This document shows, piece after piece, positions 31,667-64,000 of a DNA stretch of 64,000 nucleotides. The stretch's first letter is position 1; every line of letters starts with the position of its first letter. The DNA is from Heptranchias perlo (lineage: Eukaryota), in the NCBI RefSeq assembly GCF_035084215.1, contig NW_027139217.1, positions 1 through 64,000 on the forward strand, given 5' to 3'. The notes under the pieces are model-generated. The model was not told where the DNA came from. It saw only the letters and a program-made list of their open reading frames with translations, and did not search any database. Position numbers and translations under genes: made by a program.

Positions 31667-34197
31667 CCTTTAATGAGGTGAGAGTTGTGACTGGACCAGA
31701 ATGTCACACTGTAGGTGCCTGGTGTGCCTGATAAAGGAAGTGATTCCTTAAGCCCTCCAGTCCGACCCATGCTCCGACCCGGAATAATAAACCAGCCTTA
31801 ACTGTTAATCCCTTTCTCCCTTCACCCGGGCTCGGAGGGGAGATTCCCGCCTCCAGTGAATTAATCACTTGCTGGATTTGGATCTCCTCAGCCTGCGTCT
31901 CCTTCAAATCCCCCAGAGTCAGAGGATCTTTCAGGAAGGTCACAATCTCTGCTGGGGAAGCTCTCGTTCGAGGGTCCCACTGAATTCCATTCTCTCCCCC
32001 TTCTTTGACCAACTGCTCTGCCCTCTCATTTCCTTCCCACCCACTCCCGTTCCTGGTGTGAGCTTTAACTTTCTGTGATGTAATTTGCCCTGCGTACGAT
32101 TTAATGTGTGAGGAAACGGACTGAAGTCGTGGGGGGGCCGATGGGAAAAGCTTCCCATCCGCTGATGGAAAACCTCTCTTTTCCCAGATGGGTGAGGATT
32201 CCGTCCGGGAATCTGAATCGATGGCGGCTGGGAGCTGAACCTGGCTCATCTGGGTCATCATCTCGATAATCACTGCTGATTCAGCTGTTTGAGCCCAGAG
32301 GGGGGATGGTCACAGTCGGGAGATCTCCTTTCCCTGTTGTGGAAATATATCCCACAGCCAGTTAGGTGTAACCCCTCTCTTTGCTCGTCAGGAGCCGCCA
32401 ACAAACACTGGAGTAGAGTTGGGAATTTTCTGGGCCTTGAATCGGTCCATTCCCCAGATCGGTGGTTACCTTATAACGGTGGGGCCGACCCTGATACAGC
32501 AGCTTTCCGGGTAAGTTCGGGTCAGTCTCTGGTGTGTTTGTCCACGGTATCTCTACCCTGGAGGAGGAAGGTCCACCTCACTGGTCAGTTATTGAGACTG
32601 ACCCATCTTTCAATCTCCCATCGAACAATAACTCGGTCGGGGAGTGAGATGTGAACAAATGCAGGGGAGCTCGGCCAATGATGTCAGTGAAAAGCTGCAC
32701 CGGTCCAGAATGTGGCCGAGACGTGCCCTTCACCTGCTGAATAATTAACCTGGACCGGCCTTAGGACCCAGGAGACACACGCTACAGGACACAACTTCCC
32801 CGGTGTCTCCTGCAGCAATCCAGCTGGCAGAGCAAACTCGGAAACTGCCACTTGGAGTGAGGAAGGGCCTTCTGGGGTGGCTGTTGTAAGACGGGAGCTG
32901 TGTGAAGAGCAGCTTTTAGTTTCCCCACTGCCTCTGTGCAGGCAGGCGTCCAGTCCCAGGGCGCATCCGTCTTTAGCAAGGCAAATAAGGGAGTGCTGAG
33001 AGTCACAGAGTCTGCTGTCCAGTCCCTCCAATACCCACCCGAACCCAGGAAAGATGGGACCACCTTTACTGAGGGAGCCTGGGGAACTCCTGCAGTGTTT
33101 GTCCTTTCCCTCGGGCTCTGCTTTTCTCATCCTCCCTGACGGTGACTCCACTGGGAGATTTGGGCTTTTTTGGGATTGACTTTCACCCCCGGTCTCTGAG
33201 CAAACTCAGTAACTCATCCAGGAGATGAGTGTTCAGAAGCTTCCTGGGAGAATCAACACGGCTTGAAGAGGTGGGCAAATCCGGGCTGTGTATTCCCACC
33301 ACTCCCTTCACTCTCCGCACTCATGTTCAGACAGTGCGAATGTCTGGGGGTTTCTGTCAACGACCCTCTTTCTATCCTCTGGTGTGGACCTGAAGAGTTC
33401 CTCCAGGTTGGAATTTTTCACTCTTTGTATTAAACACCCCTCCCCTTCTCCTTCTGGAATATCGGTCAGGGGATTCCTGGTTCCCCCTTCAGCTTTCCAG
33501 AGGGACTGAACCAGGTTAATCTCGGGAGACTGACCAGCGATTGGATCCATTCCCAGTATCACTGAGTGTCATCAGAACACCAGACCAATTGAATGGGTGG
33601 GCTCCCAACACCATGGCTCTGGGGTTTGATTCGAATCCTAATTGGATGTCCCAGTAAACCCCCACCCACCCCGGGTCACTGTGACCCCCCCCCCCCCGGG
33701 TCACTGGGGGGTCCAATCCTGCCCGGCCTCTTTCCTCACCAGCCTGATCTCCCTTCCAGTCCTGCCCACAGTCCCGAGCAAGGTGTCCCGTCTCCCTACA
33801 GTTGGAACATTTCATCCCACTGCTCCCTCTCACCCTGACACTTGTATTTATGGGGTTTTCTGTTGGTTTCCCGCTCCCTTTCTTATCCTGACCCTGTTTC
33901 TGAGTCCCAGGTCCCTCATTTTTCCGAGCTGTGACCAGACTTACCCTGGGCTCACCACCCACTTTCCGGTTTTCCCAGGTTCGGGTCATTCTCTGAAGGA
34001 CACACGCCTCACTCTGGTTCGCCTCCTCTGGGATCGAATCCCACAAGGGCAGACGGCAAATAGGGTCGGGCCTGACCGTTCAGGCTTCTAAACCAGTGGC
34101 TCACTGTGGGACGCTGCCCGAAGACCCACCGTTCAATCCTGGACCGTACACCCGATCATAGAGTCGTTATAATCGATTGGCAAACACCTCGCGATAT

Positions 34198-35347
34198 TCA
34201 GTGGGCCCCTGATGGTATTTTTAGACTCTCAGTGGGCACCTGATGGTATTTTTAGACCCTCAGTGGGCCCCTGATGGTATTTTTAGACCCTCAGTGGGCC
34301 CCTGATGGTATTTTTAGACCCTCAGTGGGCCCCTGGTGATATTTTTAGACCCTCACTGGGCCCCTGATGGTATTTTTAGACCCTCAGTGGGCCCCTGATG
34401 GTATTTTTAGACCCTCAGTGGGCCCCTGATGGTATTTTTAGACCCTCACTGGGCCCCTGATGGTATTTTTAGACTCTCAGTGGGCCCCAGATGGTATTTT
34501 TTGATCCTCAGTGGGCCCCTGATGGTATTTTTAGACTCTCAGTGGGCCCCTGATGGTATTTTTAGACCCTCAGTGGGCCCCTGATGGTATTTTTAGACCC
34601 TCAGTGGGCCCCTGATGGTATTTTTAGACCCTCAGTGGGCCCCTGATGGTATTTTTAGACTCTCAGTGGGCCCCTGATGGTATTTTTAGACCCTCAGTGG
34701 GCCCCTGATGGTATTTTTAGACCCTCAGTGGGCCCCTGATGGTATTTTTAGACTCTCAGTGGGCCCCTGATGGTATTTTTAGACCCTCAGTGGGCCCCTG
34801 ATGGTATTTTTTGATCCTCAGTGGGCCCCTGATGGTATTTTTAGACCCTCAGTGGGCCCCTGATGGTATTTTTAGACTCTCAGTGGGCCCCTGATGGTAT
34901 TTTTAGACCCTCAGTGGGCCCCTGATGGTATTTTTAGACCCTCGGTGGGCCCCTGATGGTATTTTTAGACCCTCAGTGGGCCCCTGATGGTATTTTTAGA
35001 CCCTCAGTGGGCCCCTGATGGTATTTTTAGACCCTCAGTGGGCCCCTGATGGTATTTTTAGACCCTCAGTGGGCCCCTGATGGTATTTTTAGACTCTCAG
35101 TGGGCCCCTGATGGTATTTTTAGACCCTCAGTGGGCCCCTGATGGTATTTTTAGACTCTCAGTGGGCCCCTGATGGTATTTTTAGACCCTCAGTGGGCCC
35201 CTGATGGTATTTTTAGACCCTCAGTGGGCCCCTGATGGTATTTTTAGACCCTCAGTGGGCCCCTGATGGTATTTTTAGACCCTCAGTGGGCCCCTGATGG
35301 TATTTTTAGACCCTCAGTGGGCCCCTGATGGTATTTTTAGACCCTCG
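34198..35347. repeat. 31-bp minisatellite inside gag, ~37 copies
   Basis: CTCAGTGGGCCCCTGATGGTATTTTTAGACC. Confidence 0.97.
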
Positions 35348-36586
35348 GTGTGTTCCCCTCTATTAAACCCGATCGCTGTTAATCCAGCTTCCTGTGTTTG
35401 TCGCCAATCCCCGGAACCATTTTTACGGTTTGCTGTCAGCGCTCCAAACAGCCCCCCCAAGGTCCACGGTAACAATCTCACTTCCCCCCATCATCCATGC
35501 CGCTGGGCACAGCCGTTTGTTCCCCTTCTACACAATGTCTCATCACGTCCCCTCTCCTGTCAAACTCGGGGACTTGTTTGGCTCGTTCCTGAAGGACCTG
35601 CTGACTATCCAGTCCTACATAGTGACTCACTACCTCTCCTGGGTCTCTGTCTGCGTCCTCTCTCTTTACCTGAATCACTGGCTCCATAGGTGGGGGCAGC
35701 TCTCTGAGTCTGGGCTCACAATCCCCACTATGGGACTGTGCTGCCTTCCCTGCCAAATCTTCCCAGTCTCCCTCATCCAACTCCCTTCCTTCCCCCTCTT
35801 CACCAGGCGGCACTATCGTTCACACTATCCCCCCTTTTACTCTCAACACCGCCGGGAACTTTAGTGTCTCTCGCTGACAGTGAGTGCGACTCACTTCATC
35901 TCCCTCCCCAACCTGTTTAACCAACTCAAACTGGCTTCTCACTGTTGCTCAGAAATCACCATGTTCTCTTCGCAATTTCAAACACAAGAGTTCCTGATTA
36001 TTATTCAGAGCTTTAAATCTCTCAAGTTCTCTGTTCTCACTGAGAACCTTTGTCTGGAAATACTCAACGTGGTTTTCGAGAGACTGGACTCGTCTCTCCA
36101 CCATCTCTTTATTCTTCCCCTCTTTGTCCAAAGCCTTTTCCTTGTCTCTCTGCTCCTGTTTAAAAATCTCTTCCTTCATTCCCAGTTCTTTTTCAAAACC
36201 CTCTGGGCGCTAAATTGGCCCGTGTATCGCCCGTTGTTTCGGTGCTCCACCTCCCTCCAGTCCGAAAAACAACCTTCTTCTCCTGCCGCTCCGTCCTTGT
36301 TTTGGACTGAATGCCCATCGCGAAGAACCATACGGCTTTCTCTTGTTTCTCTTTAAGTTCCTTGTCCTGAATTAATTGATGAAATCTCCCCTGACACGCC
36401 CTCATCGTGTCTGCCTGGCTTTCCATGCCCTGAAACTCTTCCTCCCACTTCGGAAGTTTCTCAGCTATATGGGCAGATATTTGTCCTTCCATATCGGCCA
36501 TAACAGCACTGAGCTCAGACAGAGCTCACTGTCTGCGGTAGTTTACACTCCTTTTAAACTCAGGATCCACGTCACGCACTGAAACC

Positions 36587-38176: not shown

Positions 38177-38223
38177 TCAGGCTCGGGCTGATGAGTTCGA
38201 GGACGATTCTCCTCTTTCAGCAG
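38177..38223 (-). CDS. MHC-I exon 7, cytoplasmic end (PAERGESSSNSSARA*)
   Basis: Acceptor TTTTCTTTTCACAG|C; Ser-rich class I tail; TGA. Lies across the N gap from exon 6. Confidence 0.82.
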
Positions 38224-41200
38224 CTGTGAAAAGAAAAGATTTCTGACAAACAGACATTGTAGAACACAGNNNNNNNNNNNNNNNNNNNNNNNNNNNNNNN
38301 NNNNNNNNNNNNNNNNNNNNNNNNNNNNNNNNNNNNNNNNNNNNNNNNNNNNNNNNNNNNNNNNNNNNNNNNNNNNNNNNNNNNNNNNNNNNNNNNNNNN
38401 NNNNNNNNNNNNNNNNNNNNNNNNNNNNNNNNNNNNNNNNNNNNNNNNNNNNNNNNNNNNNNNNNNNNNNNNNNNNNNNNNNNNNNNNNNNNNNNNNNNN
38501 NNNNNNNNNNNNNNNNNNNNNNNNNNNNNNNNNNNNNNNNNNNNNNNNNNNNNNNNNNNNNNNNNNNNNNNNNNNNNNNNNNNNNNNNNNNNNNNNNNNN
38601 NNNNNNNNNNNNNNNNNNNNNNNNNNNNNNNNNNNNNNNNNNNNNNNNNNNNNNNNNNNNNNNNNNNNNNNNNNNNNNNNNNNNNNNNNNNNNNNNNAGA
38701 GGCACACAGACAGCCAGAGATACACACACACACACACACACACACAGAGGCACAGAGACAGAGAGAGTGGGTGAGAGACATGGAAAGAGAGAAAGTCAGA
38801 GAGAGAGAGAAAGACATGGGTGGAGACAGAGGGACACAGAGACAGAGAGAGAGACAGAGACAGACACAGAAAGAGACATATGCAGACAGACAGGGACACA
38901 GACAGACCCACCCTTGCACTATTTGCACACTTACGATTTGCTGGGCTGTAACCAGATTTTTTCTCTCCTCCTACAAGAGACAGAAACAGACAGAACTTCA
39001 GTTACAAACAGCTCCTCGATCAGCACAGCCCCTCGCCGACACAAACTTACTCCAGAAACAGGGGCAATGACCAGATTTCCCTGTGGGCACTCACAGGAGG
39101 CTCACTGAGAAACAGGCATCGGACAATATCCTCTCTTCACCCGGTCCCTTCACTCCCCAATCAGGCCCGGTCCCTTCACTCCCCGTACGGGGCCCCGGTC
39201 CCTTCACTCCCCGTACGGGGCCCCGGTCCCTTCACTCCCCGTACGGGGCCCCGGTCCCTTCACTCCCCGTACGGGGCCCCGGTCCCTTCACTCCCCGTAC
39301 GGGGCCCCGGTCCCTTCACTCCCCGTACGGGGCCCCGGTCCCTTCACTCCCCGTACGGGGCCCCGGTCCCTTCACTCCCCGTACGGGGCCCCGGTCCCTT
39401 CACTCCCCGTACGGGGCCCCGGTCCCTTCACTCCCCGTACGGGGCCCCGGTCCCTTCACTCCCCGTACGGGGCCCCGGTCCCTTCACTCCCCGGACGGGG
39501 CCCCGGTCCCTTCACTCCCCGGACGGGGCCCCGGTCCCTTCACTCCCCGTACGGGGCCCCGGTCCCTTCACTCCCCGTACGGGGCCCCGGTCCCTTCACT
39601 CCCCGTACGGGGCCCCGGTCCCTTCACTCCCCGTACGGGGCCCCGGTCCCTTCACTCCCCGTACGGGGCCCCGGTCCCTTCACTCCCTGTACGGGTCCCT
39701 GTCCATCACTGGACTGTGTCGGAGTTTCCCACATGTCTATGGGAAGTCTCTAATGTTCTGCCATTTGTGCTGTAACATTTGAACCTGCTCATCCCCGTGT
39801 GGGACAGATCCTGTCCTCATTTCCTACCTCTCTTCTTCCAGACAACGGCACCAATGACGAGAGCAATCAGGACGACGGCAGCAAGAACAATTCCAACAAT
39901 TAAACCCAGATTCGGTCCCTCTGAAGATCCCGGAGTCACTCGGAACGTCCCATCTGTGGGGGGAATAAGGAGGAGGAGAGAAATGAATAACGACAGTCGC
40001 TGCTGATTAGGAAGTAATGAGACCAAAGCTGTGCCTGAGACTGAGTTCGATTCGAGTCTGCGATGTGATGGGCAGTCTGATCAGAGCAAGTTGGAGGTTA
40101 GAAAGTTCAGCGTGGCTTTGATTCCACTCCTGGGAAGCACTTTGGGACGTTTCTCTCCATTAAAGGCACTTTATAAATACAAGTTGTTGCTTGTCTGCAG
40201 ATATTGGAATTACCCATCAGTCCAAAGTCATTACTAGTCCCCTCCACAAGTGATGAATCCCCAGCACAGTCTCAGAGTCGGCTGGTGGAAGTATAGTGAT
40301 GGGTGATACGGCCTTTCTATGGAAGGTTGAGGAGTTCAATGGACTAACGGCCTCCTTCACCTGACACACAGATCCCAGCCAGTCAATAACTCAGTGTAAC
40401 CCAGATATATGGTGCTGCTCATTATAGACAGGCAGGTTTGGAAATCTCTTGTATTTCTGAATAAAATTTCCCCGTCACCGTGGGCTGAAACTCACAATAT
40501 TCTCACTTTCCTTCATTTCAGACAGAACAGAATCTCTGGTTTAACTGAGCCTCAATCTCCAGCTCTGCAGAATGGGAGTGTTGGTGACTCATTACAATGG
40601 GGGCTCCCACCAGACCCCCTCCTCCCCGAAAATCCAGTCTCACCTCAAGGCCAGAATCAGCAGAGGGGGCGAAGGGGGGATATGAGGGAAGAGACGGCAG
40701 TCGCGACTCCCAGTTCCCAAGGAGGGTGTCGATGGGAACACTCTCCCCTCAGGGAGAGGTCATGGGGCTCGGGCCCACTCCAAGAATCACACTTAATACA
40801 GGCTGAGATTTCAGTGTAGCAGAGTGAGGGCCAGGGTCAGGGGTCAGAGGGAGGGCCGGGGTCAGAGGGAGGGCCGGGGGTTAGAGGGAGGGCCGGGGGT
40901 TAGAGGGAGGGCCGGGGTGAGGGGTCAGAGGGAGGGTCAGGGTAAGAGAGAGGGCCAGGGTCAGGGATCAGAGGGAGGGTCAGGGTCAGAGGGAGGGTCA
41001 GGGTCAGATGGAGGGTTAGAGGGAGGGCCGGGGTGAGGGGTCAGAGGGAGGGTCAGGGTCAGAGAGAGGGCCAGGGTCAGGGATCAGAGGGAGGGTCAGG
41101 GTCAGATGGAGGGTCAGATGGAGGGCCAGGGGTCAGAGGAAGGGTCAGGGGTCAGAGGCAGGGCCAGGGTCAGAGGGAGGGCCAGGGGTCAGATGGAGGG

Positions 41201-44200: not shown

Positions 44201-47200
44201 GTTTACAGTGGGGTTCCCCAGGGCTCAGTATTAGGACCACTGCTCTTTTTGAGAGATATTAATGACCTGGACTTGGGTATAGAGGGTATAATTTCAACGT
44301 TTGCAGCTGACATGAAACTCGGAAATGTAGTAAACAATGTGGAGGATAGTAACAGAGTTCAGGAGGACACAGACAGACTGGTGAAATGGGCAGACACATG
44401 GCAGATGAAATTTAACACAGAGAAGTGTGAAGTGATGTATTTTGGAAGGAAGAATGAGGAGAGGCGATAGAAACATCTTTAATCCTCAGCCTCAGACTCT
44501 CCCCCTGCACTCACTGATCCTCTTACCCCAGTCTCGGGTCTCCACTCCTGCTTTGCTGCTGTGATCCACCTGACAGGAGTAGGTGGCTCCGTCCTCGGGC
44601 CCGATCTCAACCCATCTCTTGATCTGGTAGGTGCCATCGTGGTTGGGCAGGATGCCAGTGGAATCAGTGTCTGAGATCGGCCGTCCATTTCTCAGGAGGG
44701 TGAGTTCGATATCTCGAGGGTAAAACCCCGTGACCAGGCAGGAGAGTTGGGCCGGTTTAGTGTCTGAGGCCTTGTCCACAGAAAGAAACACTTGGGGAGT
44801 AACTGAGAGTAAAACAGATCAGAGCCGAGTCAGTGTGAGACAGGGAACGGTGCAAACCCCTTTAAACTGGGGATTAGACCCCAGGCAACGGGACAAACCC
44901 CTTTAAACTGGGGATTAGACCCCAGGGAACGGGACAAACCCCTTTAAACTGGGGATTAGACCCCAGGGAACGGGACAAACCCCTTTAAACTGGGGATTAG
45001 ACCCCAGGGAACGGAACAAACCCCTTTAAACTGGGGATTAGACCCCAGGCAACGGGACAAACCCCTTTAAACTGGGGATGAGACCCCAGGGAACGGGACA
45101 AACCCCTTTAAACTGGGGATTAGACCCCAGGGAACGGAACAAACCCCTTTAAACTGGGGATTAGACCCCAGGCAACGGGACAAACCCCTTTAAACTGGGG
45201 ATTAGACCCCAGTCCCCCCTCACTCACCGAATCTCACTCCCCCCTCACTCACCGAATCTCACTCCCCCCTCACTCACCGACTCTCACTCCCCCCCTCACT
45301 CACCGACTCTCACTCGTCCCATCACTCACCGACTCTCACTCCCCCCCTCACTCACCGACTCTCACTCCACCCCTCACTCACCGTCTCTCACTCCCCCCTC
45401 ACTCACCGACTCTCTGTCCCCCCCTCACTCACCGACTCTCAGTCCCCTCCTCACTCACCGACTCTCACTCCACCCTCACTCACCGACTCTCACTCCCCCC
45501 CTCATTCACCGACTCTCACTCCCCCCCTCACTCACCGACTCTCACTCCACCCTCACTCACCGACTCTCACTCCCCCCCTCATTCACCGACTCTCACTCCC
45601 CCCCTCATTCACCGACTCTCACTCCCCCCCTCACTCACCGACTCTCAGTCCCCCCCCCTCACTCACCGACTCTCAGTCCCCCCCTCACTCACCGACTCTC
45701 AGTCCCCCCCTCACTCACCGACTCTCACTCCCCCCCTCACTCACCGACTCTCACTCCTCCCCTCACTCACCGACTCTTCACTCCCCCCTCACTCACCGAC
45801 TCTTCACTCCCCCTCACTCACCGACTCTCACTCCCCCCCTCACTCACCGACTCTCACTCCCCCCCTCACTCACGACTCCTCACTCCCCCCTCACTCACTG
45901 ACTCTCACTCCCCCCCTCACTCACCGGCCATCAGTTCCCTCTTTCCGTACTCGAGGTATTTCCTCAGCCACTCGATGCAGGTCCCCTCCAGGTATCCCTT
46001 CACCCCTTGTTTCATGGCCTTGTTCTGGTCCCACTTGTTCTTGGTGATCTCTCCCCACTGTACCGGTGTTACCCACACCATCTGATCCTTATCGAAGTTG
46101 ATCAAATCCTCCCCGTCCCAGGCGTACTGAACGAACCCTCTCGTGGTCCCATCATCCCCCAGATCACAGCCGTACATCCGCTGATACGTGTGGATTCCTG
46201 TCAATCAAACACAGGGGGTCAGTCAGACCCACACCCCCCACCCAGGGTCAGGGGTCAGACCCACACCCCCCACCCAGGGTCAGGGGTCAGAGTGAAGGAA
46301 TACTGCGGAGTGATCCTCGACCCCCAGACCCCGCCCCCCCCGGACCACCCTCGCAGCCCCGAGACAACCCCTCCCCCAGAACCCCCCCAAGATCTCGCCT
46401 CCCCACAGATCCCGCTCCCGGACCCCATCGCCCCCCAGACCACCCTCAAAACCCCCCCAAGACACCCCCCTCCCCCGGACCCCCCCCCCCCAGACCCTGC
46501 CTCCCCCAGACCCCACGTCCCCCCAGAGCCCGCCCTCCCCCGGACCACCCTCACACCCTCCCCCCAGACTCCGCCTCCCCCAGACCCCCCTCACCCAGAC
46601 CACCCTCACACCCCCCCAGACCACCCCCTTCACTGGACCCCACCTCTCCCTGACCACCCTCGCCCCTCCCCCGGACCGCCCTCACACCCTCCAGACTCTG
46701 CCTCCCCCCGGACCCCGCCTTCCCCGGAACCTGCCTCCCTCCGGACCCCGCCTCCCCCCAGGCCCCGGCTCCTCCGGACCACCCTCACCCCTTGCCCCAG
46801 ACCACCCACCCCACCACCCGGACCCCGCCCCTGCTCCCCAAACCACCAATGATCCCCAAATCCCCCCCACCCCTGTCTCCACCCCGCATCATTCGGACAG
46901 CCACTGACCCCCGGACCCCCCTCTAATCGATGACATTATCGGACCCTGATCTTTGTACTTAAAGGGACCTCCAACCTCCCATCTATGTATTTAAAGGACC
47001 CCCGGACCCCGAATAGTGTATTTAAAGGATCCCCCGGACCCCGATCAGTGTATTTAAAGGACCCCCCGGACCCCGATCAGTGTATTTAAAGGACCCCCGG
47101 ACCCCGATCAGTGTATTTAAAGGACCCCCGGACCCCGATCAGTGTATTTAAAGGACCCCCGGACCCCGATCAGTGTATTTAAAGGACCCCCGGACCCTGA

Positions 47201-50200: not shown

Positions 50201-53200
50201 AGAGCCAGGACGTGCAGGAGTGAAGTTAGGAAATGCTTCTACACACAAAGGGTGGGAGATGTTTGGAACGCTCTTCTGCAGACAGCAGTTGATGCTAGCT
50301 CACTTGTGAATGTTAAATCTGAGATTGATCGATTTCTGTGAACCAAGGGTATTATGGGATATGGGGCTAAGGCGGGTATATGGAGTGAGGTCACAGGTCC
50401 ACCATGATCTCATTGAATGGCTCGAGGGGCGAAATGCCACGGCCACTTGCTGCCTCTTGATATGCGCCACCTTCTCCTGCAAGAAAGCGGGACGTGTGCC
50501 TGGGTGATGTGCCTGTCATGGTTGAATAGCTCCCAGTGTGTGTGGCCTGTGAGTTGTGGGTGGGCGGCTTGAAACAGTGGTAATGTGTAAGGGTGAGAGG
50601 AAGCATCTGATTGGAAGAGTTGAGTATTGATGGAAAGAGTTTGTTGGTATGTGGGTGATGGGGGGTGTCGTGTGTGGGGCAGTTGGTTGGAGACACCACT
50701 TGACAGTTGACCTCACTCACCTTGACCACTCATGTCAGAGCATTGAACTTCTTCCTGCACTGCATCCATGTTCGTGATGCTGTGGGCCTGGCATTGACTT
50801 CCTCCCCCCGCTGCCTTTTGAGTATATGTCTGGAGGGCCTCTTTCCCCCCCCGCCCCCCGCGGATATAGGATGTCCCTCCTTCTGTCCACCTCTTGCGCC
50901 CAAGGTCTCTCGTGCATCAGCAGAGAACCTTGGTGCATGCACTCTCACAGGCCTGGTACCAACTCAGATCGGCAGATTGGTGAGGTCTGGTGTGCAGATT
51001 GGAGGATGTGGGATTTAGTAGTGTGCAACCTTTATTCAATGTTTTAACATAACTCATCATTGTGTAAACATAGGGATGGGACCTGCATCTGTGTTTTATG
51101 TGTACGATGTCTGATCTCCGTTCAGACTCCGTGCAGACTGCTATTTTCAGCAAATAACAGGTACCAGCTCCCTTTAAGAGATTTCTAAGAAACATCCTCC
51201 CTTTAAGAGATGGCGCTCCCCCTGGTGGTGGAAGGTGTGAATTGCATTGATTCCAGGTGTGAGGCCTGGGATGGAACGCTGATTACAGGCCGAGGACTCA
51301 CCGCCCGATTGGTTGGTCCGGGTCGAGAGGATCTCAATCGCGACTTTCCCGGTCCGCTCCGAGATCTGTGCATTCCGTGTGTTCCCCTCCCAGTACTCGG
51401 GCCCCTCGCTCTCCTCCATCCAGCGCTGCCGCGGGATCATCGTCCTCCGCTCGCTGTTATATTCAACAAACTGGGCCTCGTCCACATAACCGACAACAAC
51501 AAACTCCGGAAAACCAGGGATCGGGGTCATTGAGGTAAAGAAATACCGGAGAGAGTGAGAGCCTGAAACACAGAGAGAGAGAGGTCAGGGCATGAACCCC
51601 AAAACACCAACCCCAGAGAGAGAGAGAGATCAGGGCATGAACCCCAAAACACCAACCCCAGAGAGAGAGAGAGATCAGGGCATGAACCCCAAAACACCAA
51701 CCCCAGAGAGAGAGAGAGATCAGGGTATGAATCCCAAAACACCAACCCCAGAGAGAGAGAGATCAGGGCATGAACCCCAAAACACCAACCCCAGAGAGAG
51801 AGAGATCAGGGCATGAACCCCAAAACACCAACCCCAGAGAGAGAGAGATCAGGGCATGAACCCCAAAACACCAACCCCAGAGAGAGAGAACAGGGCATGA
51901 ACCCCAAAACACCAACCCCAGAGAGAGAGAGAGATCAGGGCATGAACCCCAAAACACCAACCCCAGAGAGAGAGAGATCAGGGCATGAACCCCAAAACAC
52001 CAACCCCAGAGAGAGAGAGATCAGGGCATGAACCCCAAAACACCAACCCCAGAGAGAGAGAGAGAGATCAGGGCATGAACCCCAAAACACCAACCTCAGA
52101 GAGAGAGAGATCAGGGCATGAACCCCAAAACACCAACCCCAGAGAGAGAGAGAGATCAGGGCATGAACCCCAAAACACCAACCCCAGAGAGAGGGAGATC
52201 AGGGCATGAACCCCAAAACACCAACCCCAGAGAGAGAGAGAGATCAGGGCATGAACCCCAAAACACCAACCCCAGAGAGAGAGATCAGGGCATGAACCCC
52301 AAAACACCAACCCCAGAGAGAGAGATCAGGGCATGAACCCCAAAACACCAACCCCAGAGAGAGAGAGAGATCAGGGCATGAACCCCAAAACACCAACCCC
52401 AGAGAGAGAGAGAGAGAGATCAGGGCATGAACCCCAAAACACCAACCCCAGAGAGAGAGAGATCAGGGCATGAACCCCAAAACACCAACCCCAGAGAGAG
52501 AGAGAGATCAGGGCATGAACCCCAAAACACCAACCCCAGAGAGAGAGATCAGGGCATGAACCCCAAAACACCAACCCCAGAGAGAGATCAGGGCATGAAC
52601 CCCAACCACATGCCAAATTCCCAAACAAATCCAACCCAACACAGATCCCCTGTAAATAAACCCCAACACAAGAGGGAGAGGGGCCTGGGTTAACACACCC
52701 ACTGACAGAGGGAGAGGGGCCTGGGGTAACACACCCACTGACAGACTGAGGGAGAGGGGCCTGGGGTAACACACCCACTGACAGACTGAGGGAGAGGGGC
52801 CTGGGGTAACACACCCCCTGACAGACTGTGGGAGAGGGGCCTGGGGTAACACACCCCCTGACAGACTGAGGGAGAGGGGCCGGGGTAACACACCCACTGA
52901 CAGACTGAGGGAGAGGGGCCTGGGGTAACACACCCCCTGACAGACTGAGGGAGAGGGGCCTGGGGTAACACGCCCACTGACAGACTGAGGGAGAGGGGCC
53001 TGGGGTAACACACCCACTGACAGACTGAGGGAGAGGGGCCTGGGGTAACACACCCACTGACAGACTGAGGGAGAGGGGCCTGGGGTAACACACCCACTGA
53101 CAGACTGAGGGAGAGGGGCCTGGGGTAACACACCCACTGACAGACTGAGGGAGAGGGGCCGGGGTAACACACCCACTGACAGACTGAGGGAGAGGGGCCT

Positions 53201-56200: not shown

Positions 56201-56272
56201 CCCTCTCAGACCCCATTACTCACCTGCAGAGACCCCTCCACACAGAACGACCAGAACTATCAGTCCAATCAT
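38177..56272 (-). CDS. UAA: MHC class I heavy (alpha) chain gene, classical-type (UAA-like). Exons: 56224-56272, 51302-51562, 45925-46197, 44527-44802, 39828-39953, 38935-38970, 38177-38223 (1068 nt, 355 aa)
   Basis: Hand-spliced exons are all GT-AG, phase 1, and join into one uninterrupted frame: leader, a1, a2, a3, TM, two cytoplasmic exons. Anchors Y7, Y59, R84, T143, K146, W147, Y159, Y171 (HLA numbering), the N86 sequon (NQS) and both disulfide pairs are present. The symbol UAA is inferred from these residues; lineage not tested phylogenetically. Confidence 0.93.
38270..38697. other. Assembly gap (428 N) in MHC-I intron 6
   Basis: Run of N. Confidence 0.99.
38935..38970 (-). CDS. MHC-I exon 6, cytoplasmic (GGEKKSGYSPAN)
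   Basis: Acceptor TTGTAG|G, donor ATC|GTAAGT, 36 nt; carries the conserved cytoplasmic Tyr (GYxxA). Confidence 0.85.
39167..39698. repeat. 28-bp palindromic CpG-rich minisatellite, ~19 copies (intron 5)
   Basis: CCGGTCCCTTCACTCCCCGTACGGGGCC. Confidence 0.97.
39828..39953 (-). CDS. MHC-I exon 5, connecting peptide and transmembrane helix (LGLIVGIVLAAVVLIALVIGAVVWKKR)
   Basis: Acceptor CCACAG|A, donor GAG|GTAGGA; hydrophobic run followed by a basic stop-transfer signal. Confidence 0.92.
40824..41310. repeat. Degenerate GGGTCAGA(G/T)GGA-type G-rich repeat (intron 4)
   Basis: Direct reading. Confidence 0.9.
41730..43742. repeat. 35-bp purine-rich minisatellite, ~57 copies (intron 4)
   Basis: GAGTAAAGAGAGAGAGGGAGGGAACGGAGCACTGG; explains the 648-753 aa ORFs. 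Confidence 0.98.
43760..44473 (+). mobile_element. CR1 ORF2 RT fragment (intron 4)
   Basis: VPEDWR, SQHGFVKGKSCLTNL, GVPQGSVLGP, FAADMKLG. Confidence 0.92.
44527..44802 (-). CDS. MHC-I exon 4, alpha-3 Ig C1 domain (LSCLVTGFYPRDI...PNHDGTYQ...YSCQVDHSS)
   Basis: Acceptor TCTCAG|T, donor GGG|GTAAGA, 276 nt; C1-set motifs. Confidence 0.97.
44843..45212. repeat. 41-bp minisatellite, ~9 copies, with hairpin CTGGGG-ATTAGA-CCCCAG (intron 3)
   Basis: Direct reading. Confidence 0.96.
45213..45924 (-). repeat. ~25-bp minisatellite built from the exon-3 splice donor, ~28 copies
   Basis: Sense unit AGTGAGAGTCG|GTGAGTGAGGGGGG, contiguous with the real donor CCG|GTGAGTGAGGGGGG. Confidence 0.95.
45925..46197 (-). 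CDS. MHC-I exon 3, alpha-2 domain (GIHTYQRMYGCD...ITKNKWD...GYLEGTCIEWLRKYLEYG)
   Basis: Acceptor TGACAG|G, donor CCG|GTGAGT, 273 nt; Cys pair, TxxKW, Y159, Y171. Confidence 0.97.
46985..47812. repeat. 31-bp minisatellite, ~26 copies, with a ~12-unit block duplication (intron 2)
   Basis: GTGTATTTAAAGGACCCCCGGACCCCGATCA; variant CTGAACATTG recurs at ~47259 and ~47632. Confidence 0.95.
47960..48160 (+). mobile_element. CR1 ORF2 fragment that seeds the adjacent array
   Basis: DFQEASDKVP...GVRGQRAEWI...NRKQRVRVKGSFSDWQKVGNGV. Confidence 0.85.
48131..49771. repeat. 31-bp minisatellite, ~53 copies, derived from the CR1 GVPQGSVLG codons
   Basis: GTTCACCGGGGATCAGTGCCGGGAACGCTGT, compared with GTTCCCCAGGGATCGGTGCTGGGACCACTGT at 15231-15261. 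Confidence 0.96.
49772..51230 (-). mobile_element. Probable PIF/Harbinger-derived remnant with frameshifted Myb/SANT-like ORF (~50710-50950); contains a CR1 3' piece at ~50165-50430
   Basis: APRFSADARETL...EVDRRRDILYP...EEVNAR...RTWMQCRKKFNAL; outer boundaries uncertain. Confidence 0.65.
51302..51562 (-). CDS. MHC-I exon 2, alpha-1 domain (GSHSLRYFFTSMTPIPGFPEFVVVGYVD...PEYWEGNT...STRTNQSG)
   Basis: Acceptor TTTCAG|G, donor GCG|GTGAGT, 261 nt; canonical a1 motifs. Confidence 0.97.
51572..52604 (-). repeat. ~41-51-bp minisatellite, ~22 copies, of branch point plus (TC)n tract, directly upstream of the exon-2 acceptor
   Basis: Sense unit GGGGTTGGTGTTTTGGGGTTCATGCCCTGATC(TC)nT. Confidence 0.95.
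52673..53981. repeat. 40-bp minisatellite, ~32 copies (intron 1)
   Basis: GGGAGAGGGGCCTGGGGTAACACACCCACTGACAGACTGA. Confidence 0.97.
54170..54912 (+). mobile_element. Internally deleted CR1: ORF1 N-terminus joined to an RT fragment
   Basis: ACTAGAAATGTCAGC... homologous to 11504-11820; later GESHGFVKG and MDFQ. Confidence 0.82.
54918..55353. mobile_element. Two CR1 3' ends in inverted orientation (54918-55125 on -, 55137-55353 on +)
   Basis: AGGCCATTCAGCCCCTCGAGCCTGTTCC ... GGAACAGGCTCGAGGGGCTGAATGGCCT. Confidence 0.85.
55465..56223 (-). repeat. 59-bp minisatellite, ~13 copies, starting at the exon-1 donor
   Basis: First unit begins GTGAGTAATGGGGTCTG; later copies begin GTGGGTAATGGGGTCTG. 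Confidence 0.96.
56224..56272 (-). CDS. MHC-I exon 1, leader peptide MIGLIVLVVLCGGVSA
   Basis: ATG, hydrophobic signal peptide ending VSA, donor CAG|GTGAGT; phase 1 joins to GSHSLRY. Confidence 0.9.
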
Positions 56273-56337
56273 TGCTGCTTCCCTCGACAGGCTGGGATGA
56301 GCAGTTTGTGGGAAATCCTTTTCCAGGAGACGGTCTC

Positions 56338-58310
56338 CTCTGTCCCTGTGCTAACACTGTACCTCCTGGTCTCTCCCTCTCTCTGTCCCTGTGCTAACAC
56401 TGTACCTCCTGGTCTCTCCCTCTCTTTGTCCCTGTGCTCACACTGTACCTCCTGGTCTCTCCCTCTCTCTGTCCCTGTGCTAACACTGTACCTCCTGGTC
56501 CCTCCCTCTCTCTGTCCCTGTGCTAACACTGTACCTCCTGGTCTCTCTCTCTCTCTGTCCCTGTGCTAACACTGTACCTCCTGGCCTCTCTCCCTCTCTC
56601 TGTCCCTGTGCTCACACTGTACCTCCTGGTCTCTCCCTCTCTCTGTCCCTGTGCTCACACTGTACCTCCTGGTCTCTCCCTCTCTCTGTCCCTGTGCTAA
56701 CACTGTACCTCCTGGTCTCTCTCCCTCTCTCTGTCCCTGTGCTAACACTGTACCTCCTGGTCTCTCCCTCTCTCTGTCCCTGTGCTAACACTGTACCTCC
56801 TGGTCTCTCTCCCTCTCTCTGTCCCTGTGCTCACACTGTACCTCCTGGTCTCTCCCTCTCTCTGTCCCTGTGCTAACACTGTACCTCCTGGTCTCTCTCT
56901 CTCTCTCTGTCCCTGTGCTCACACTGTACCTCCTGGTCTCTCCCTCTCTCTGTCCCTGTGCTAACACTGTACCTCCTGGTCTCTCCCTCTCTCTGTCCCT
57001 GTGCTAACACTGTACCTCCTGGTCTCTCTCTCTCTCTGTCCCTGTGCTAACACTGTACCTCCTGGCCTCTCTCCCTCTCTCTGTCCCTGTGCTCACACTG
57101 TACCTCCTGGTCTCTCCCTCTCTCTGTCCCTGTGCTAACACTGTACCTCCTGGTCTCTCTCTCTCTCTCTGTCCCTGTGCTAACACTGTACCTCCTGGTC
57201 TCTCTCTCTCTCTCTGTCCCTGTGCTCACACTGTACCTCCTGGTCTCTCCCTCTCTCTGTCCCTGTGCTAACACTGTACCTCCTGGTCTCTCCCTCTCCC
57301 TGTCCCTGTGCTAACACTGTACCTCCTGGTCTCTCCCTCTCTCTGTCCCTGTGCTAACACTGTACCTCCTGGTCTCTCTCTCTCTCTGTCCCTGTGCTAA
57401 CACTGTACCTCCTGGTCTCTCGCCCTCCCTCTGTCCCTGTGCTAACACTGTACCTCCTGGTCTCTCCCTCTCTCTGTCCCTGTGCTAACACTGTACCTCC
57501 TGGTCTCTCCCTCTCTCTGTCCCTGTGCTAACACTGTACCTCCTGGTCTCTCCCTCTCTCTGTCCCTGTGCTAACACTGTACCTCCTGGTCTCTCCCTCT
57601 CTCTGTCCCTGTGCTAACACTGTACCTCCTGGTCGCTCCCTCTCTCTGTCCCTGTGCTAACACTGTACCTCCTGGTCTCTCCCTCTCTCTGTCCCTGTGC
57701 TAACACTGTACCTCCTGGTCTCTCCCTCTCTCTGTCCCTGTGCTAACACTGTACCTCCTGGTCTCTCTCTCTCTCACTGTCCCTGTGCTCACACTGTACC
57801 TCCTGGTCTCTCCCTCTCTCTGTCCCTGTGCTAACACTGTACCTCCTGGTCTCTCTCCCTCTCTCTGTCCCTGTGCTCACACTGTACCTCCTGGTCTCTC
57901 CCTCTCTCTGTCCCTGTGCTAACACTGTACCTCCTGGTCTCTCTCTCTCTCTCTGTCCCTGTGCTAACACTGTACCTCCTGGTCTCTCTCTCTCTCTCTG
58001 TCCCTGTGCTCACACTGTACCTCCTGGTCTCTCCCTCTCTCTGTCCCTGTGCTAACACTGTACCTCCTGGTCTCTCCCTCTCTCTGTCCCTGTGCTAACA
58101 CTGTACCTCCTGGTCTCTCGCCCTCCCTCTGTCCCTGTGCTAACACTGTACCTCCTGGTCTCTCCCTCTCTCTGTCCCTGTGCTAACACTGTACCTCCTG
58201 GTCTCTCCCTCTCTCTGTCCCTGTGCTAACACTGTACCTCCTGGTCTCTTCCTCTCTCTGTCCCTGTGCTAACACTGTACCTCCTGGTCTCTCTCCCTCT
58301 CCCTCTCTCT
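56338..58310. repeat. 43-45-bp minisatellite, ~44 copies, between the promoter and the ATG
   Basis: CTGTCCCTGTGCTAACACTGTACCTCCTGGTCTCTCCCTCTCT. Confidence 0.98.
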
Positions 58311-58351
58311 CAGTCACCTCCATATTGTTTGCTTCGACAGTCAGTTTGTGC

Positions 58352-58544
58352 CCAATCAGAATGAAAGCAGCCTGTGAATCAGCAAACTCCAGGCAGAGGA
58401 GTCCCAGAGAGTTTGTGTCGGTGGAAAAATAAACTGTCCAAATATCCTGAACCGTCCAATCAGAGAAATACTGCTCGTTCCATGTTCAGTTGCCAGGGAG
58501 AATGAACTGAACAGGATTTGATCATTAAACAAGGAACTGAAAGT
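58352..58544 (-). promoter_or_regulatory. MHC-I promoter: X1 box, two Y boxes (inverted CCAAT), X2/AP-1-like site, ISRE/EICE-like site
   Basis: Sense strand: CCTGGCAACTGAAC (58484-58497), 20-nt spacer, CTGATTGG (58456-58463). Second CTGATTGG at 58352-58359 with TGATTCA at 58375-58381. GGAACTGAAAGT at 58533-58544 on +. Confidence 0.7.
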
Positions 58545-58569: not shown

Positions 58570-59191
58570 GAAGAACATAGGAACAGGAGGAGGCCATTCA
58601 GCCCCTCGAGCCTGCTCCCCCATTCAATCAGGTCATGGCTGATCTGTACCTCATCTCCATTTTCCCGCTTTGCTCCGTGTCCCTTGATCCCGTTACCCAA
58701 CAAAACTCTGATCAATCGCAGTCTTAAAAGCTCCAATTGTCCCGACATCCACAGCCTTTTGGGGGAGAGAGTTCCAGATTTCCACTTCCCTTTGTGTGAA
58801 AATGGGATTCCTGATTTCCCTCCTCAATGACCTCACTCTAATTTTAAGATGATGTCCCCTCGTTCTTGACTCCCCCACCAGAGGAAATAGTTTCTCCGTC
58901 TTACCCTATCGAATCCTGTGAACATTATAAACCCCTCAATCAGATCACCCCTCAACCTTCGATACTCAAGGGAATACAAGACAAGTTTCTCCACCCTCCC
59001 TTTAAACCCCGGGATCATTCTGGTGAATCTGGTCTGCACCCCCTCCAAGGCCAATCTATCCTTCCTGAGGTGCGGTGCCCAGAACTGAACACAGTCTCCA
59101 GATGGGGTCTGACCAGGACTCTGTACAACTGAATCATAACTTCCTCCCCTTTGTAATCCAGCCCCCTCGAGATAAAGGCCAACATTCCATT
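58570..59191 (-). mobile_element. CR1 3' fragment
   Basis: GMLAFISRGL...RPHLE...RRLRGDLIE plus 3' UTR. Confidence 0.9.
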
Positions 59192-60245: not shown

Positions 60246-62147
60246 TAAAAGGACCACACCCTTCCTCTTAAAGGGGAGGTCTCCTTAAAAGGGCCACTCC
60301 CTTATTTGGGGATCAGGGCCCTCCCTTACACATCCTCCCCCCATCATAGACCCCTAGGCTCTGGCTGCTCGCTCCGCGAGGCAATACCCCCGGGAGAGGG
60401 CATCGGAGTTACCGTGTGCCACTCCCGCCCGGTGTTCCACCTCGAAACAATCGGGCTGGAGTGACGAAATCCACCGGGTAACCCGGGCATTTTTCTCACT
60501 GTTGGACCACATCCATTTGAGGGGCACGTGATTGGTCACGAGGAGAAGCTGGTACCCCAACAGGTGGTGTTTTAAGGGTTTCTACCGCCCATTTAATTGG
60601 TGGGCACTCCTTCTCTGCCGTAGCGTGTTGCTGCCCCCTGGCCAACAGCTTTCTGTTCAGGTCGAGCACAGGATTTCCTCCCCCTTCACCATTTGAGAGA
60701 GGACGGCCCCCAAACCACCTCGGAGGCAGCGGTTTACAAGACAAATTTTGGACTAAAGTCTGGGACCATGAGCTCAGGATCATTCACAGTGTTTGGTTCA
60801 GGTCCCTGAAAGCAGTCTCCGCCTCAGGGTCCCACCGTACAAGGTTCAGTGCCTCTGCTTTACTCGCTCGGTAAGTGGGGGGCGCGGCTCGGGGAGAAAG
60901 GCAGGAATAAAGCGGCAGGAGTAACCAACGATGCCCAAGAAAGCCCCGACTTGCTTATTCCTCGGTCGGGGCCAGGCTTTTATAGGTTCAACTCTATTTA
61001 CCTGAGACGTCACCACCCCTCCTCCTACAGCCCACCCTCGGTAGTCGGCCTCCGACAACACCAGGTGGCCCTTGGCCGGGTTTGCCGTGAGCCCAATCTT
61101 TCTTAGGCTGTGTAATCCAGCCTCTCCTCCAGGTAAATGGGATCACCAGTCTGTACTATAAATAATGGCATCATCCAGATATGAGGCTGCACCCCGGGTA
61201 TGGGGGTCCCAACACTTGGTCCATGAGCCTTTGGAAGGTGACTGGGCCCCCATGGAATCCAAATGCCATGACGGTGAATGGGAGAGCCCCTCGGGAACCC
61301 CGAAACACGGGTTTCCTTTTGCAGCCTCTGTTAAAGGGATCTGCCAGCACCCCTTGGTCAGATCGAAGGGGGTAAGATCAAAGGGGCCTTCGCCAATCTC
61401 TCAATCAACTCATCCCCCCGGGGCATCGGGAAAGCATCGGATTTCAATCCTCATTCAGTTTCCGAAAGTCATTTCAGAATCGCCAATTCCCATCGGGATT
61501 CAGAACCAACACAATGGGGCTGCTCCGTTCACCGTGATTCTTCAATCACCCCGAAGATCAACACCCTCGGAATCTCCTGGCGAACCTCCCTCCGTTTGGC
61601 TTCTGGGATTCGGTCCGGTCTGACCTTTATTGTCACTCCTGGTGGTGTCACCAGGTGAGAGCAGATGGCCCCCGTCCTCCCAGGCCCAGATGTGAATACA
61701 TTGCAGGTTCCATCTCCCAGGTGCTGAGCCTGCCTGCACTGATCCTCAGGCAGCTCACTAGAGAGGTGAACTGGGCTTTGTACCTTGGAGCCAGGGCCCC
61801 CCTAGTGCTTTCTCCATCACTGCGAGGGCCTCTCTCTCTCCATGGCTTCAGGAGGGGCACATGGTCTTTCTGGTCAGGCTTCCTTCTCTGAGGTTGCCTG
61901 ACCTTATAGTTCACTGGGCCCACAGCCTCTAGAACCTCCTAAAGTCCCTGCCACCCTGCAAAGAGCTTGTTTCAGGTGTGGGAACGAGGACCGTAACTCG
62001 GTCTCCTGGTCGGAACCTCCTGACTGCAGCCTCTCTTACACTGGGCTCTCTGCTCTTCCTGCACCCTCTCGAAATGAGCCCTCACTATGGGGGGAACCGC
62101 CTCAATCCGCGCCCCATCTTCACTCTGTGCTCAATAATATTATTGGA
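60246..62147 (-). mobile_element. Gmr1-like gypsy LTR retrotransposon remnant (IN C-terminus, RT, RNase H, PPT, partial 3' LTR)
   Basis: FRPGDRV..VGPVNYKVRQP..HVPLLKPW lies upstream of WSSPIVL, DLTKGCWQIPL, FHGAQSPSKG (degenerate), YLDD and HRAGVAHGNSDALSR; GGGGGGAGGA|TGTGTAAG at ~60332. Confidence 0.85.
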
Positions 62148-62148
62148 G

Positions 62149-64000
62149 GACCGAGGCCCCTCCCTCCCCGCCCGAGGCCCCTCCCTCCCCGACCGAGGCC
62201 CCTCCCTCCCCGACCGAGGCCCCTCCCTCCCGACCGAGGCCCCTCCCTCCCCGACCGAGGCCCCTCCCTCCCTGACCGAGGCCCCTCCCTCCCCGACCGA
62301 GGCCCCTCCCTCCCCGACCGAGGCCCCTCCCTCCCTGACCGAGGCCCCTCCCTCCCCGACCGAGGCCCCTCCCTCCCCGACCGAGGCCCCTCCCTCCCTG
62401 ACCGAGGCCCCTCCCTCCCCGACCGAGGCCCCTCCCTCCCCGACCGAGGCCCCTCCCTCCCCGACCGAGGCCCCTCCCTCCCCGACCGAGGCCCCTCCCT
62501 CCCTGACCGAGGCCCCTCCCTCCCCGACCGAGGCCCCTCCCTCCCCGACCGAGGCCCCTCCCTCCCCGACCGAGGCCCCTCCCTCCCCGACCGACCGAGG
62601 CCCCTCCCTCCCCGACCGAGGCCCCTCCCTCCCCGACCGAGGCCCCTCCCTCCCTGACTGAGGCCCCTCCCTCCCTGACCGAGGCCCCTCCCTCCCCGAC
62701 CGAGGCCCCTCCCTCCCCGACCGAGGCCCCTCCCTCCCCGACCGAGGCCCCTCCCTCCCTGACCGACCGAGGCCCCTCCCTCCCCGACCGAGGCCCCTCC
62801 CTCCCCGACCGAGGCCCCTCCCTCCCCGCCCGAGGCCCCTCCCTCCTCGACCGAGGCCCCTCCCTCCCCGACCGAGGCCCCTCCCTCCCTGACCGACCGA
62901 GGCCCCTCCCCGACCGACCGAGGCCCCTCCCTCCCCGACCGAGGCCCCTCCCTCCCCGACCGAGGCCCCTCCCTCCCCGACCGACCGAGGCCCCTCCCTC
63001 CCCGACCGAGGCCCCTCCCTCCCTCCCCGACCGAGGCCCCTCCCTCCCTCCCCGACCGAGGCCCCTCCCTCCCCGACCGAGGCCCCTCCCTCCCCGACCG
63101 AGGCCCCTCCCTCCCCGACCGAGGCCCCTCCCTCCCCGACCGACCGAGGCCCCTCCCTCCCCGACCGAGGCCCCTCCCTCCCTGACCGAGGCCCCTCCCT
63201 CCCCGACCGAGGCCCCTCCCTCCCCGCCCGAGGCCCCTCCCTCCCCGACCGAGGCCCCTCCCTCCCCGACCGACCGAGGCCCCTCCCTCCCCGACCGAGG
63301 CCCCTCCCTCCCCGACCGAGGCCCCTCCCTCCCCGACCGACCGAGGCCCCTCCCTCCCCGACCGAGGCCCCTCCCTCCCTCCCCGACCGAGGCCCCTCCC
63401 TCCCTCCCCGACCGAGGCCCCTCCCTCCCCGACCGAGGCCCCTCCCTCCCCGACCGAGGCCCCTCCCTCCCCGCCCGAGGCCCCTCCCTCCCCGACCGAG
63501 GCCCCTCCCTCCCTGACCGAGGCCCCTCCCTCCCCGACCGAGGCCCCTCCCTCCCCGACCGAGGCCCCTCCCTCCCCGCCCGAGGCCCCTCCCTCCCTGA
63601 CCGAGGCCCCTCCCTCCCCGACCGACCGAGGCCCCTCCCTCCCCGACCGAGGCCCCTCCCTCCCCGACCGAGGCCCCTCCCTCCCCGACCGACCGAGGCC
63701 CCGCCCTCCCCGACCGAGGCCCCTCCCTCCCCGACCGACCGAGGCCCCGCCCTCCCCGACCGAGGCCCCTCCCTCCCCGACCGAGGCCCCTCCCTCCCGA
63801 CCGAGGCCCCTCCCTCCCCGACCGAGGCCCCTCCCTCCCCGACCGAGGCCCCTCCCTCCCCGACCGACCGAGGCCCCGCCCTCCCCGACCGAGGCCCCTC
63901 CCTCCCCGACCGATCGAGGCCCCGCCCTCCCCGACCGAGGCCCCTCCCTCCCCGACCGAGGCCCCTCCCTCCCCGACCGAGGCCCCTCCCTCCCCGACCG
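62149..64000. repeat. 21-bp GC-rich minisatellite, runs off the window
   Basis: CCGAGGCCCCTCCCTCCCCGA. Confidence 0.98.

What the first reader, a model, noticed from the sequence alone, without database searches (positions are those of the whole stretch)
56273..58544. 2-kb VNTR sits between the X-Y/ISRE promoter and the MHC-I start codon
Seen: an X1-like box and a perfect Y box with 20-nt spacing, a second Y box with a TGATTCA site, and GGAACTGAAA all lie just beyond a ~44-copy array. The array ends ~65 nt from the ATG and its sense unit has no ATG. Known: SXY modules (RFX/CREB/NF-Y with NLRC5 or CIITA) usually lie within a few hundred bp of the ATG. Inference: this gives either an unusually long ATG-free purine-rich 5' UTR, a new 5'-UTR intron, or a promoter pushed to enhancer distance. 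Array length may set allele expression.
Basis: partly seen in the sequence, partly recalled or inferred. Interest (0 to 1): 0.7.

Follow-up and report, generated by a model that had tools for sequence, protein, structure and literature searches.

The report
Repeat-inflated leader of shark MHC-I
A shark immune (MHC class I) gene has 45 tandem copies of a 43-base piece between its control sites and its start codon, sister copies of the gene have from none to about 80, and RNA of the gene family contains the tandem repeats, so the array is likely an inflated untranslated front end of the message, probably a by-product of a repeat-rich region, with an untested effect on gene output.

Summary
Observation confirmed, with corrections. 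A 45-unit, 43/45-nt array (56338-58301) separates a real X1-20-Y module, a second Y box and an ISRE-like site from the ATG (56272) of an intact, NCBI-annotated shark class I gene, probably non-classical (UBA-like). The X2 slot is degenerate, and an ATG lies just before the array (58323). Eleven cassettes in the genome share this promoter and exon 1: eight carry about 23-80 units, three carry 0, 0 and 1. The one-unit copy shows the likely origin: the unit follows a CCAAT / TATA-like / initiator-like run that the window gene lacks. Horn shark gene models show a different 54-nt repeat (2-5 copies) between the same anchors. Contigs of four runs (one sample, spliced RNA) run from the ATG into the array and across unit junctions, with no listed splice joint. 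So the array is at least partly exonic in the family and an intron is unlikely; the start site and the source gene are unresolved. 58% of this gene is tandem repeat, so passive expansion is plausible. Length-dependent expression is untested. My look-ups found no earlier scan note on this locus; promoter repeats were noted at other genes of this genome.

The parts
58571..58589 (-). 3' end of a high-copy interspersed repeat (SINE-like; label inferred) that bounds the promoter upstream
   Evidence: Short genome-wide hits to the first 30-50 nt of the promoter query; very many unrelated contigs on this stretch; place
58533..58544 (-). ISRE/IRF-like site, one base from the form in copy L041
   Evidence: binding untested
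58513..58519 (-). S-box-like heptamer 15 nt before X1 (likeness to the S box is recalled)
   Evidence: S-X distance 'within 16' in PMC4374748
58484..58497 (-). X1-like box
   Evidence: 12 of 14 bases kept in divergent copy L042
58456..58463 (-). Y box 1, 20 nt after X1
   Evidence: 8 of 8 kept in L042
58375..58381 (-). TGATTCA in the X2 position of a second, X1-degenerate module
   Evidence: the same heptamer sits between X1 and Y in two modules on C1161; 6 of 7 kept in L042
58352..58359 (-). Y box 2
   Evidence: 8 of 8 kept in L042
58321..58323 (-). upstream ATG opening 46 codons into the array; present at this offset in 8 of 12 cassettes
56338..58301 (-). 43/45-nt minisatellite, 45 units, amplified piece of the likely ancestral 5' UTR
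   Evidence: tandem units in RNA contigs
56273..56337 (-). unique 5' UTR, recognisable in horn shark and catshark gene models
56224..56272 (-). coding part of exon 1 (leader peptide), GT donor follows
   Evidence: spliced to exon 2 in RNA contigs
51302..51562 (-). exon 2, alpha-1 domain
45925..46197 (-). exon 3, alpha-2 domain
44527..44802 (-). exon 4, alpha-3 domain
39828..39953 (-). exon 5, transmembrane
   Evidence: read against P0007
38935..38970 (-). exon 6, cytoplasmic
38177..38223 (-). coding part of exon 7 with stop codon
   Evidence: read against P0007

Best explanation
The 2-kb array is a tandem amplification of one 43-base piece that occurs once in a sister copy of this shark MHC class I gene, and RNA of the gene family contains the tandem units, so it is likely an inflated, unspliced 5' untranslated leader that probably grew passively in a repeat-rich region. 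Shown: the unit's single-copy state, 0 to about 80 copies across cassettes, shared variant patterns between arrays, tandem units in RNA contigs. Inferred: slippage or unequal exchange between short direct repeats at the unit ends made the array once, and gene duplication or conversion spread it; the window gene lacks a 39-nt piece with the TATA-like and initiator-like sites, so the SXY/ISRE enhanceosome would start transcription loosely at the upstream edge of the array or inside it; ribosomes would scan the ATG-free, purine-rich leader to the normal ATG. Any effect on protein output would be a side effect of leader length.
For: Single-unit copy L041: second Y box, CCAATC at +27, TTTAAT at +53, CTCACAG at +79, then one unit, ATG at +191. 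This order matches the class I core promoter (CCAAT, TATA, Inr) described in PMC7281430 (passage). 8 of 11 cassettes have arrays, with Y2-to-ATG distances of 1107-3741 nt; 3 of 11 have 163, 191, 213 nt. Variant units recur in the same order in several arrays. All 183 exact matches to a 45-nt junction word in the assembly are accounted for by these 8 arrays (127 forward + 56 reverse); exon 1-exon 2 spliced loose ends in X1 and X2; X4 record 26 (56272-56354) and X1 record 2 (56286-56365) bridge the candidate acceptor at 56318/56317 with at least 31 letters on each side; records in all four runs reach 56402-56420, past the point (about 56388) where the one-unit copy departs; one X3 contig goes back 83 nt, i.e. 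at least three units in a row; all four runs show the 56376 variant, whose exact unit type occurs in 4 of 8 arrays and no nearer than 246 nt to the ATG. Horn shark models carry 2, 3 or 5 copies of an 18-residue (54-nt) unit between two anchors that match L041's translation (8 of 10 residues at the first anchor). Background: 44% of the window and 58% of the gene are tandem repeat.
Against: Contigs cannot show a start, a level or a strand, and the four runs are one sample of one study, flagged only as 'RNA?'. The RNA cannot be assigned to the window's gene: the leader type with most summed depth differs from the window at 56324-56325 and matches L041 there, and the exon 1 of the UAA-like gene on C1438 is missing from the assembly, so it could be a source of tandem units. 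The second candidate acceptor (56292/56291) is not bridged by any listed record with 31 letters on both sides; 14 of 16 loose-end rows and 32 of about 1180 pieces were shown. One X4 contig (depth 29.7) covers the promoter itself, so some molecules come from further upstream or from DNA. The 56376 variant could also come from a related unit type in L040 or from error. The last 331 nt of the leader fold better than all 100 shuffles (z -3.2), which does not fit a fully unstructured leader, though repeats bias this test. The horn shark evidence is predicted protein only, and 7 of 15 listed members start at the normal Met. L041 as the ancestral state is an inference.
Confidence: 0.62

Rival explanations
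1. Transcription starts in the last few units or just after the array; the SXY/ISRE cluster works from 2 kb away as a proximal enhancer, and the leader is short.
For: The window gene lacks the CCAATC, TTTAAT and CTCACA sites that L041 has, so the start need not be tied to the boxes. Every unit offers the same sequence context as the last. RNA evidence reaches only about 3-6 units from the ATG.
Against: In mouse all NLRC5-bound SXY modules lie just upstream of the start site (PMC4374748, passages). Tandem units are in the RNA, so starts confined to 56273-56340 do not describe the family.
Confidence: 0.17
2. The window's gene is weakly transcribed or silent because it lost its core promoter; the array RNA comes from other cassettes or from the unassembled UAA-like gene.
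For: The leader type with most summed depth is not the window's. X2 slot degenerate, ISRE one base off, core elements absent. The family is multicopy with an identical alpha-3, so 3' words do not identify the gene.
Against: The reading frame is intact. X4 record 26 has the window-type letters at 56324-56325 and runs into the unit, which fits 7 array-bearing cassettes including this one. NCBI lists two transcript accessions for this exact protein.
Confidence: 0.13
3. The array lies in a new 5'-UTR intron, with a donor at 58318/58317 and an acceptor at 56318 or 56292.
For: A donor-like GAG|GTGACT follows the upstream ATG, and two AG sites precede the ATG, one after a pyrimidine-rich run (sequence). 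Splicing to 56317 would put the upstream ATG in frame. Two NCBI transcripts give the same protein, so a UTR variant may exist.
Against: No such joint or loose end is listed; two records bridge the 56318 site; the stretch around both AGs is read through in array-free copies and is recognisable in horn shark and catshark leaders.
Confidence: 0.08

Closest known systems
Human expression-linked VNTRs near start sites, e.g. the AS3MT 5' UTR VNTR and the CSTB upstream 12-mer (PMC8024321; passages read)
   Same: Tandem array of variable length at or just after the transcription start; that paper finds VNTRs within 100 bp of a start site twice as likely to be linked to expression.
   Different: Those alleles are short (median 48 bp); here arrays are 1-3.6 kb, vary between paralogous cassettes, and no link to expression has been measured.
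MHC SXY module with ISRE (RFX, CREB/ATF1, NF-Y; NLRC5 or CIITA) (PMC4374748 and PMC7281430; passages read)
   Same: S-like, X1 and Y boxes at 15 and 20 nt spacing, ISRE upstream, and in the one-unit copy a CCAAT / TATA-like / Inr-like run downstream.
   Different: Two Y-containing modules 104 nt apart, one with a degenerate X2 and one with a degenerate X1; core elements absent in the window gene; 2.1 kb to the ATG; no binding data in sharks here.
Shark non-classical class I UBA family (PMC12562908 and PMC10751288; passages read)
   Same: Multicopy and UAA-like in alpha-1/alpha-2, as described for UBA ('derived from the UAA family').
   Different: Assignment is inferred: no sequence named UBA was compared, and linkage to C4/RXRB was not tested.
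Horn shark (Heterodontus francisci) class I models P0016, P0061-63, P0065-66, P0068
   Same: Same alpha-3 clade (99/96 support) and a variable repeat between the same two leader anchors.
   Different: 54-nt unit, 2-5 copies, stop-free and in frame, so the models give an N-terminal extension; DNA not seen.

Membership tests
MHC SXY promoter module | X1 box (consensus recalled) | tested here: met
MHC SXY promoter module | Y box 20-22 nt after X | tested here: met
   20 nt; range from PMC4374748
MHC SXY promoter module | CRE-like X2 box next to X1 | tested here: not met
   slot reads ACATGGA in module 1; TGATGCA in L042; TGATTCA only in module 2, whose X1 is degenerate
MHC SXY promoter module | S box within 16 nt before X | tested here: inconclusive
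   S-like heptamer 15 nt upstream, 6 of 7 kept in L042; no matrix test
MHC SXY promoter module | lies just upstream of the transcription start | tested here: inconclusive
   contigs cannot show a start
MHC SXY promoter module | bound by RFX/NF-Y and NLRC5 or CIITA | not testable with these tools
   needs ChIP or reporter work
ISRE / IRF element | GAAA-N2-GAAA core (recalled) | tested here: inconclusive
   window has one mismatch; L041 has the full form
Expression-linked 5' VNTR (eVNTR) | copy number varies between alleles of one locus | tested here: inconclusive
   0 to about 80 units between 11 cassettes of one assembly; which are alleles and which paralogues is not known
Expression-linked 5' VNTR (eVNTR) | lies in the 5' UTR or at the start site | tested here: inconclusive
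   tandem units in family RNA; not assigned to this gene
Expression-linked 5' VNTR (eVNTR) | length correlates with expression | not testable with these tools
   contig depth cannot rank genes
Classical shark class I (UAA) | single dominant locus (recalled) | tested here: not met
   11 cassettes, 7 on one contig
Classical shark class I (UAA) | alpha-3 of the classical type | tested here: not met
   39/88 identity to the nurse shark PDB 6LUP chain, 34/88 to Triakis O46821; separate starred clade with horn shark and catshark rows (28 rows chosen by me from those fetched)
Classical shark class I (UAA) | peptide-anchoring Y7, Y59, R84, T143, K146, W147, Y159, Y171 (list recalled) | tested here: met
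   matching motifs present in P0007, judged by eye
Classical shark class I (UAA) | next to TAP and immunoproteasome genes | tested here: inconclusive
   0 of 26 proteasome-family matches lie on C1050, C1057, C1161, C1654, C736 or C1438; search is a lower bound, assembly fragmented, TAP not searched
Shark non-classical UBA | multicopy, UAA-derived | tested here: met
   definition from PMC12562908
Shark non-classical UBA | clusters with named UBA sequences; flanked by C4 and RXRB | not tested
   no sequence labelled UBA came up; linkage from PMC10751288 not checked

The most novel reading that the evidence does not exclude
The start of the shark UBA-like class I transcript is a long-lived expansion hotspot, used in both great shark lineages and with four different units (43, 50 and 24 nt here, 54 nt in horn shark), that works as a dial: kilobase leaders or multiplied CCAAT boxes set the protein level of each paralogue, giving a multigene MHC family graded expression without changing its SXY module.
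Probability: 0.2. Interest if true: 0.7.

Novelty: new variant of a known kind. Interest (0 to 1): 0.4.

Why it matters
MHC class I level matters for immunity, and a family of near-identical promoters that differ mainly in a 0-3.6 kb insert is a ready natural series for asking whether leader length or promoter distance tunes expression. The locus also gives a concrete shark class I promoter with S-X-Y, ISRE and core elements in the mammalian order; my searches listed no paper describing one, but the library lacks most subscription papers, including the older shark class I literature. If the array is neutral, it is one more minisatellite in a region that is nearly half minisatellite.

Tried and rejected
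No listed run is on record as RNA; this blank is no evidence. On array-free copy L038 the promoter stretch (970-1189) has no cover in 3 of 4 runs and one contig in the fourth, and the intron-1 side has none in 3 of 4 runs; lack of cover is not used as evidence. Summed contig depth is far higher on the array than on exon 1, but fragmented contigs inflate it, so no units-per-transcript figure is drawn. No DNA run or silent control stretch was laid. An assembly artefact is rejected: eight arrays have distinct variant strings and tandem units occur in independent short-read contigs. Independent origin of each 43-nt array is rejected because variant order is shared. Selection against ATG is not supported (chance is about even). 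An in-frame N-terminal extension is rejected for this gene: the 43-nt unit shifts frame and the upstream ATG stops after 46 codons. First translations of exons 2-4 were in the wrong frame and were redone. The proteasome search did not place the family relative to the class Ia region. The paper on the UEA lineage (PMC8454915) is not held, so I saw only its citation. Searches for VNTRs in shark microchromosomes or MHC and for HLA core-promoter spacing listed nothing usable. Sequence and place look-ups of earlier notes were empty. No supplements were opened; those of PMC10751288 (class I query sets) could settle the lineage name.

Full report
Gene. The minus strand holds a seven-exon MHC class I gene from ATG 56272 to a stop at 38177. 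Its alpha-2 exon is 100% identical to P0007, a 355-residue NCBI model labelled Heptranchias perlo on a contig of the same length as the window's. Alpha-3 is identical (92/92) in six proteins of this species while alpha-1 and alpha-2 differ (52-76 of 87, 68-83 of 91), and it groups with horn shark and catshark rows (99/96) apart from the nurse shark, Triakis and horn shark rows that I take as classical. A multicopy family with UAA-like peptide domains fits the description of UBA in PMC12562908 (passage); the name is my inference.

Observation. The array spans 56338-58301 with 45 units of 43 or 45 nt, ends 65 nt before the ATG and has no sense ATG. The X1-20-Y module is not chance: 1 match in the window, 0 in 100 shuffles; 16 matches of a tighter pattern in the genome, 12 of them this family, 0 for the control. 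The spacing agrees with PMC4374748 (passages). Three corrections: the X2 slot is degenerate, the ISRE is one base off the form in copy L041, and an ATG at 58323 precedes the array.

Sister copies. Of 30 hits to the promoter, 12 are long (11 at 95-100%, one at 81%) and 18 are short hits to a repeat tail. The exon-1 region gives 11 of 11 hits, each paired with a promoter. The second Y box lies 163, 191 and 213 nt from the ATG in three cassettes and 1107-3741 nt in eight, which carry about 23-80 units. Variant units recur in the same order in several arrays, so the arrays share one origin and spread with the gene. Copy L041 has one unit, preceded by CCAATC, TTTAAT and CTCACAG at +27, +53 and +79. 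That is the CCAAT / TATA / initiator order of the class I core promoter in PMC7281430 (passage); that the spacings resemble HLA is recalled, not checked. The window gene lacks the 39 nt holding the last two sites, and its CCAAT is changed. So the unit is most simply the first stretch of the old leader. Other units grew at the same place: a 50-mer containing CCAATC in L039 and L040 (2 and 9 CCAATC), and a 24-mer in the divergent L042.

Another shark. Eight of 15 listed members of a horn shark cluster of 39 begin with MQSALGTAHR, then 2, 3 or 5 copies of an 18-residue unit, then a stretch ending EKDSPQTVHPRLLREATM; seven start at the normal Met. L041 translates to IQSALGKAHR before its unit and EKDFPQTAHPSLSTM after it. 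A different, variable repeat thus lies between the same anchors in a distant shark. This rests on predicted proteins; I did not see the DNA.

RNA. Four runs of one sample hold 87-93% of the 3' words. They are flagged only as probable RNA, but two show exon 1 joined to exon 2. Contigs run from the ATG into the last unit, two bridge the candidate acceptor at 56318, contigs in all four runs pass the point where the one-unit copy departs, one holds at least three units in a row, and a unit variant found no nearer than 246 nt to the ATG is read in all four. No joint from the promoter side to either acceptor is listed (tables were cut). Every exact junction word in the assembly lies in the eight class I arrays. 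Against a firm reading: contigs show no start; the leader type with most depth is L041-like, not the window's; the exon 1 of the UAA-like gene on C1438 is not in the assembly and could supply tandem units; one low-depth contig covers the promoter; no DNA control was laid.

Background. Tandem arrays make up 44% of the window, 58% of the gene and 55-97% of introns 1-5, and their lengths also differ between copies (intron-1 43-mer: 23, 51 and 93 copies). One more array at the 5' end needs no special cause. Earlier scan notes report promoter repeats at other genes of this genome (unchecked leads).

Mechanism. Shown: single-unit state, copy range, shared variants, tandem units in family RNA. Inferred: amplification between short direct repeats, loss of the core piece, loose initiation at the upstream edge of or within the array, scanning to the normal ATG (0.62). 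Rivals: start near the ATG with the boxes as an enhancer (0.17), a weak or silent copy (0.13), an intron (0.08). That length tunes expression is possible, by analogy with human VNTRs near start sites (PMC8024321, passages), but nothing here tests it.

Verdict. A real feature and a new variant of a known kind: a kilobase VNTR at the front of an MHC class I transcript, at a site that expands repeatedly in sharks. Searches listed no description of it (listings seen; one review read by passages). Interest 0.4.

Noticed in passing
L046 (G000:C1057:292000-298300), with L038 and L032: Two promoter-plus-exon-1 cassettes lie 7 kb apart, the upstream one array-free and the downstream one with about 35 units, with no exon 2 between them: an orphan duplicate or an alternative first exon of one gene.
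   Followed up: partly
L040 (G000:C1050:384000-387600) and L039: A 50-nt unit that contains CCAATCAG, a perfect Y box on the other strand, is repeated after the second Y box: 9 CCAATC in L040, 2 in L039. This multiplies a candidate NF-Y site.
   Followed up: partly
L042 (end of G000:C736) and L043 (start of G000:C1438): C736 ends in a 24-mer array right after a class I promoter with a better X2 box; C1438 starts inside the intron-1 array of a UAA-like gene lacking exon 1. They may be two halves of the classical gene; not shown.
   Followed up: partly
G000:C1161:144158-144199 and 145762-145803: Two near-identical X1-TGATTCA-Y modules 1.6 kb apart, of an unidentified gene or genes.
   Followed up: no
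window 44527-44802 and paralogues: Alpha-3 is 100% identical in six proteins of this species while alpha-1/alpha-2 differ by 9-40%, and the window's alpha-2 is 88% identical to the UAA-like gene: suggests exon exchange or conversion.
   Followed up: partly
window 56317-56330 and each array unit: CCAGGAG in every unit is complementary to CTCCTGG just after the array, so the last unit could fold into a stem in the leader; the L041-type leader breaks it.
   Followed up: no
window 31000-36500 and 60400-62100: Decayed retroelement-like sequence flanks the gene on both sides (impression from reading; not tested).
   Followed up: no
window 2-9120 and 62149-64000: Large satellites: a 13-mer in about 704 copies and an 81% GC 21-mer in at least 85 copies.
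   Followed up: no
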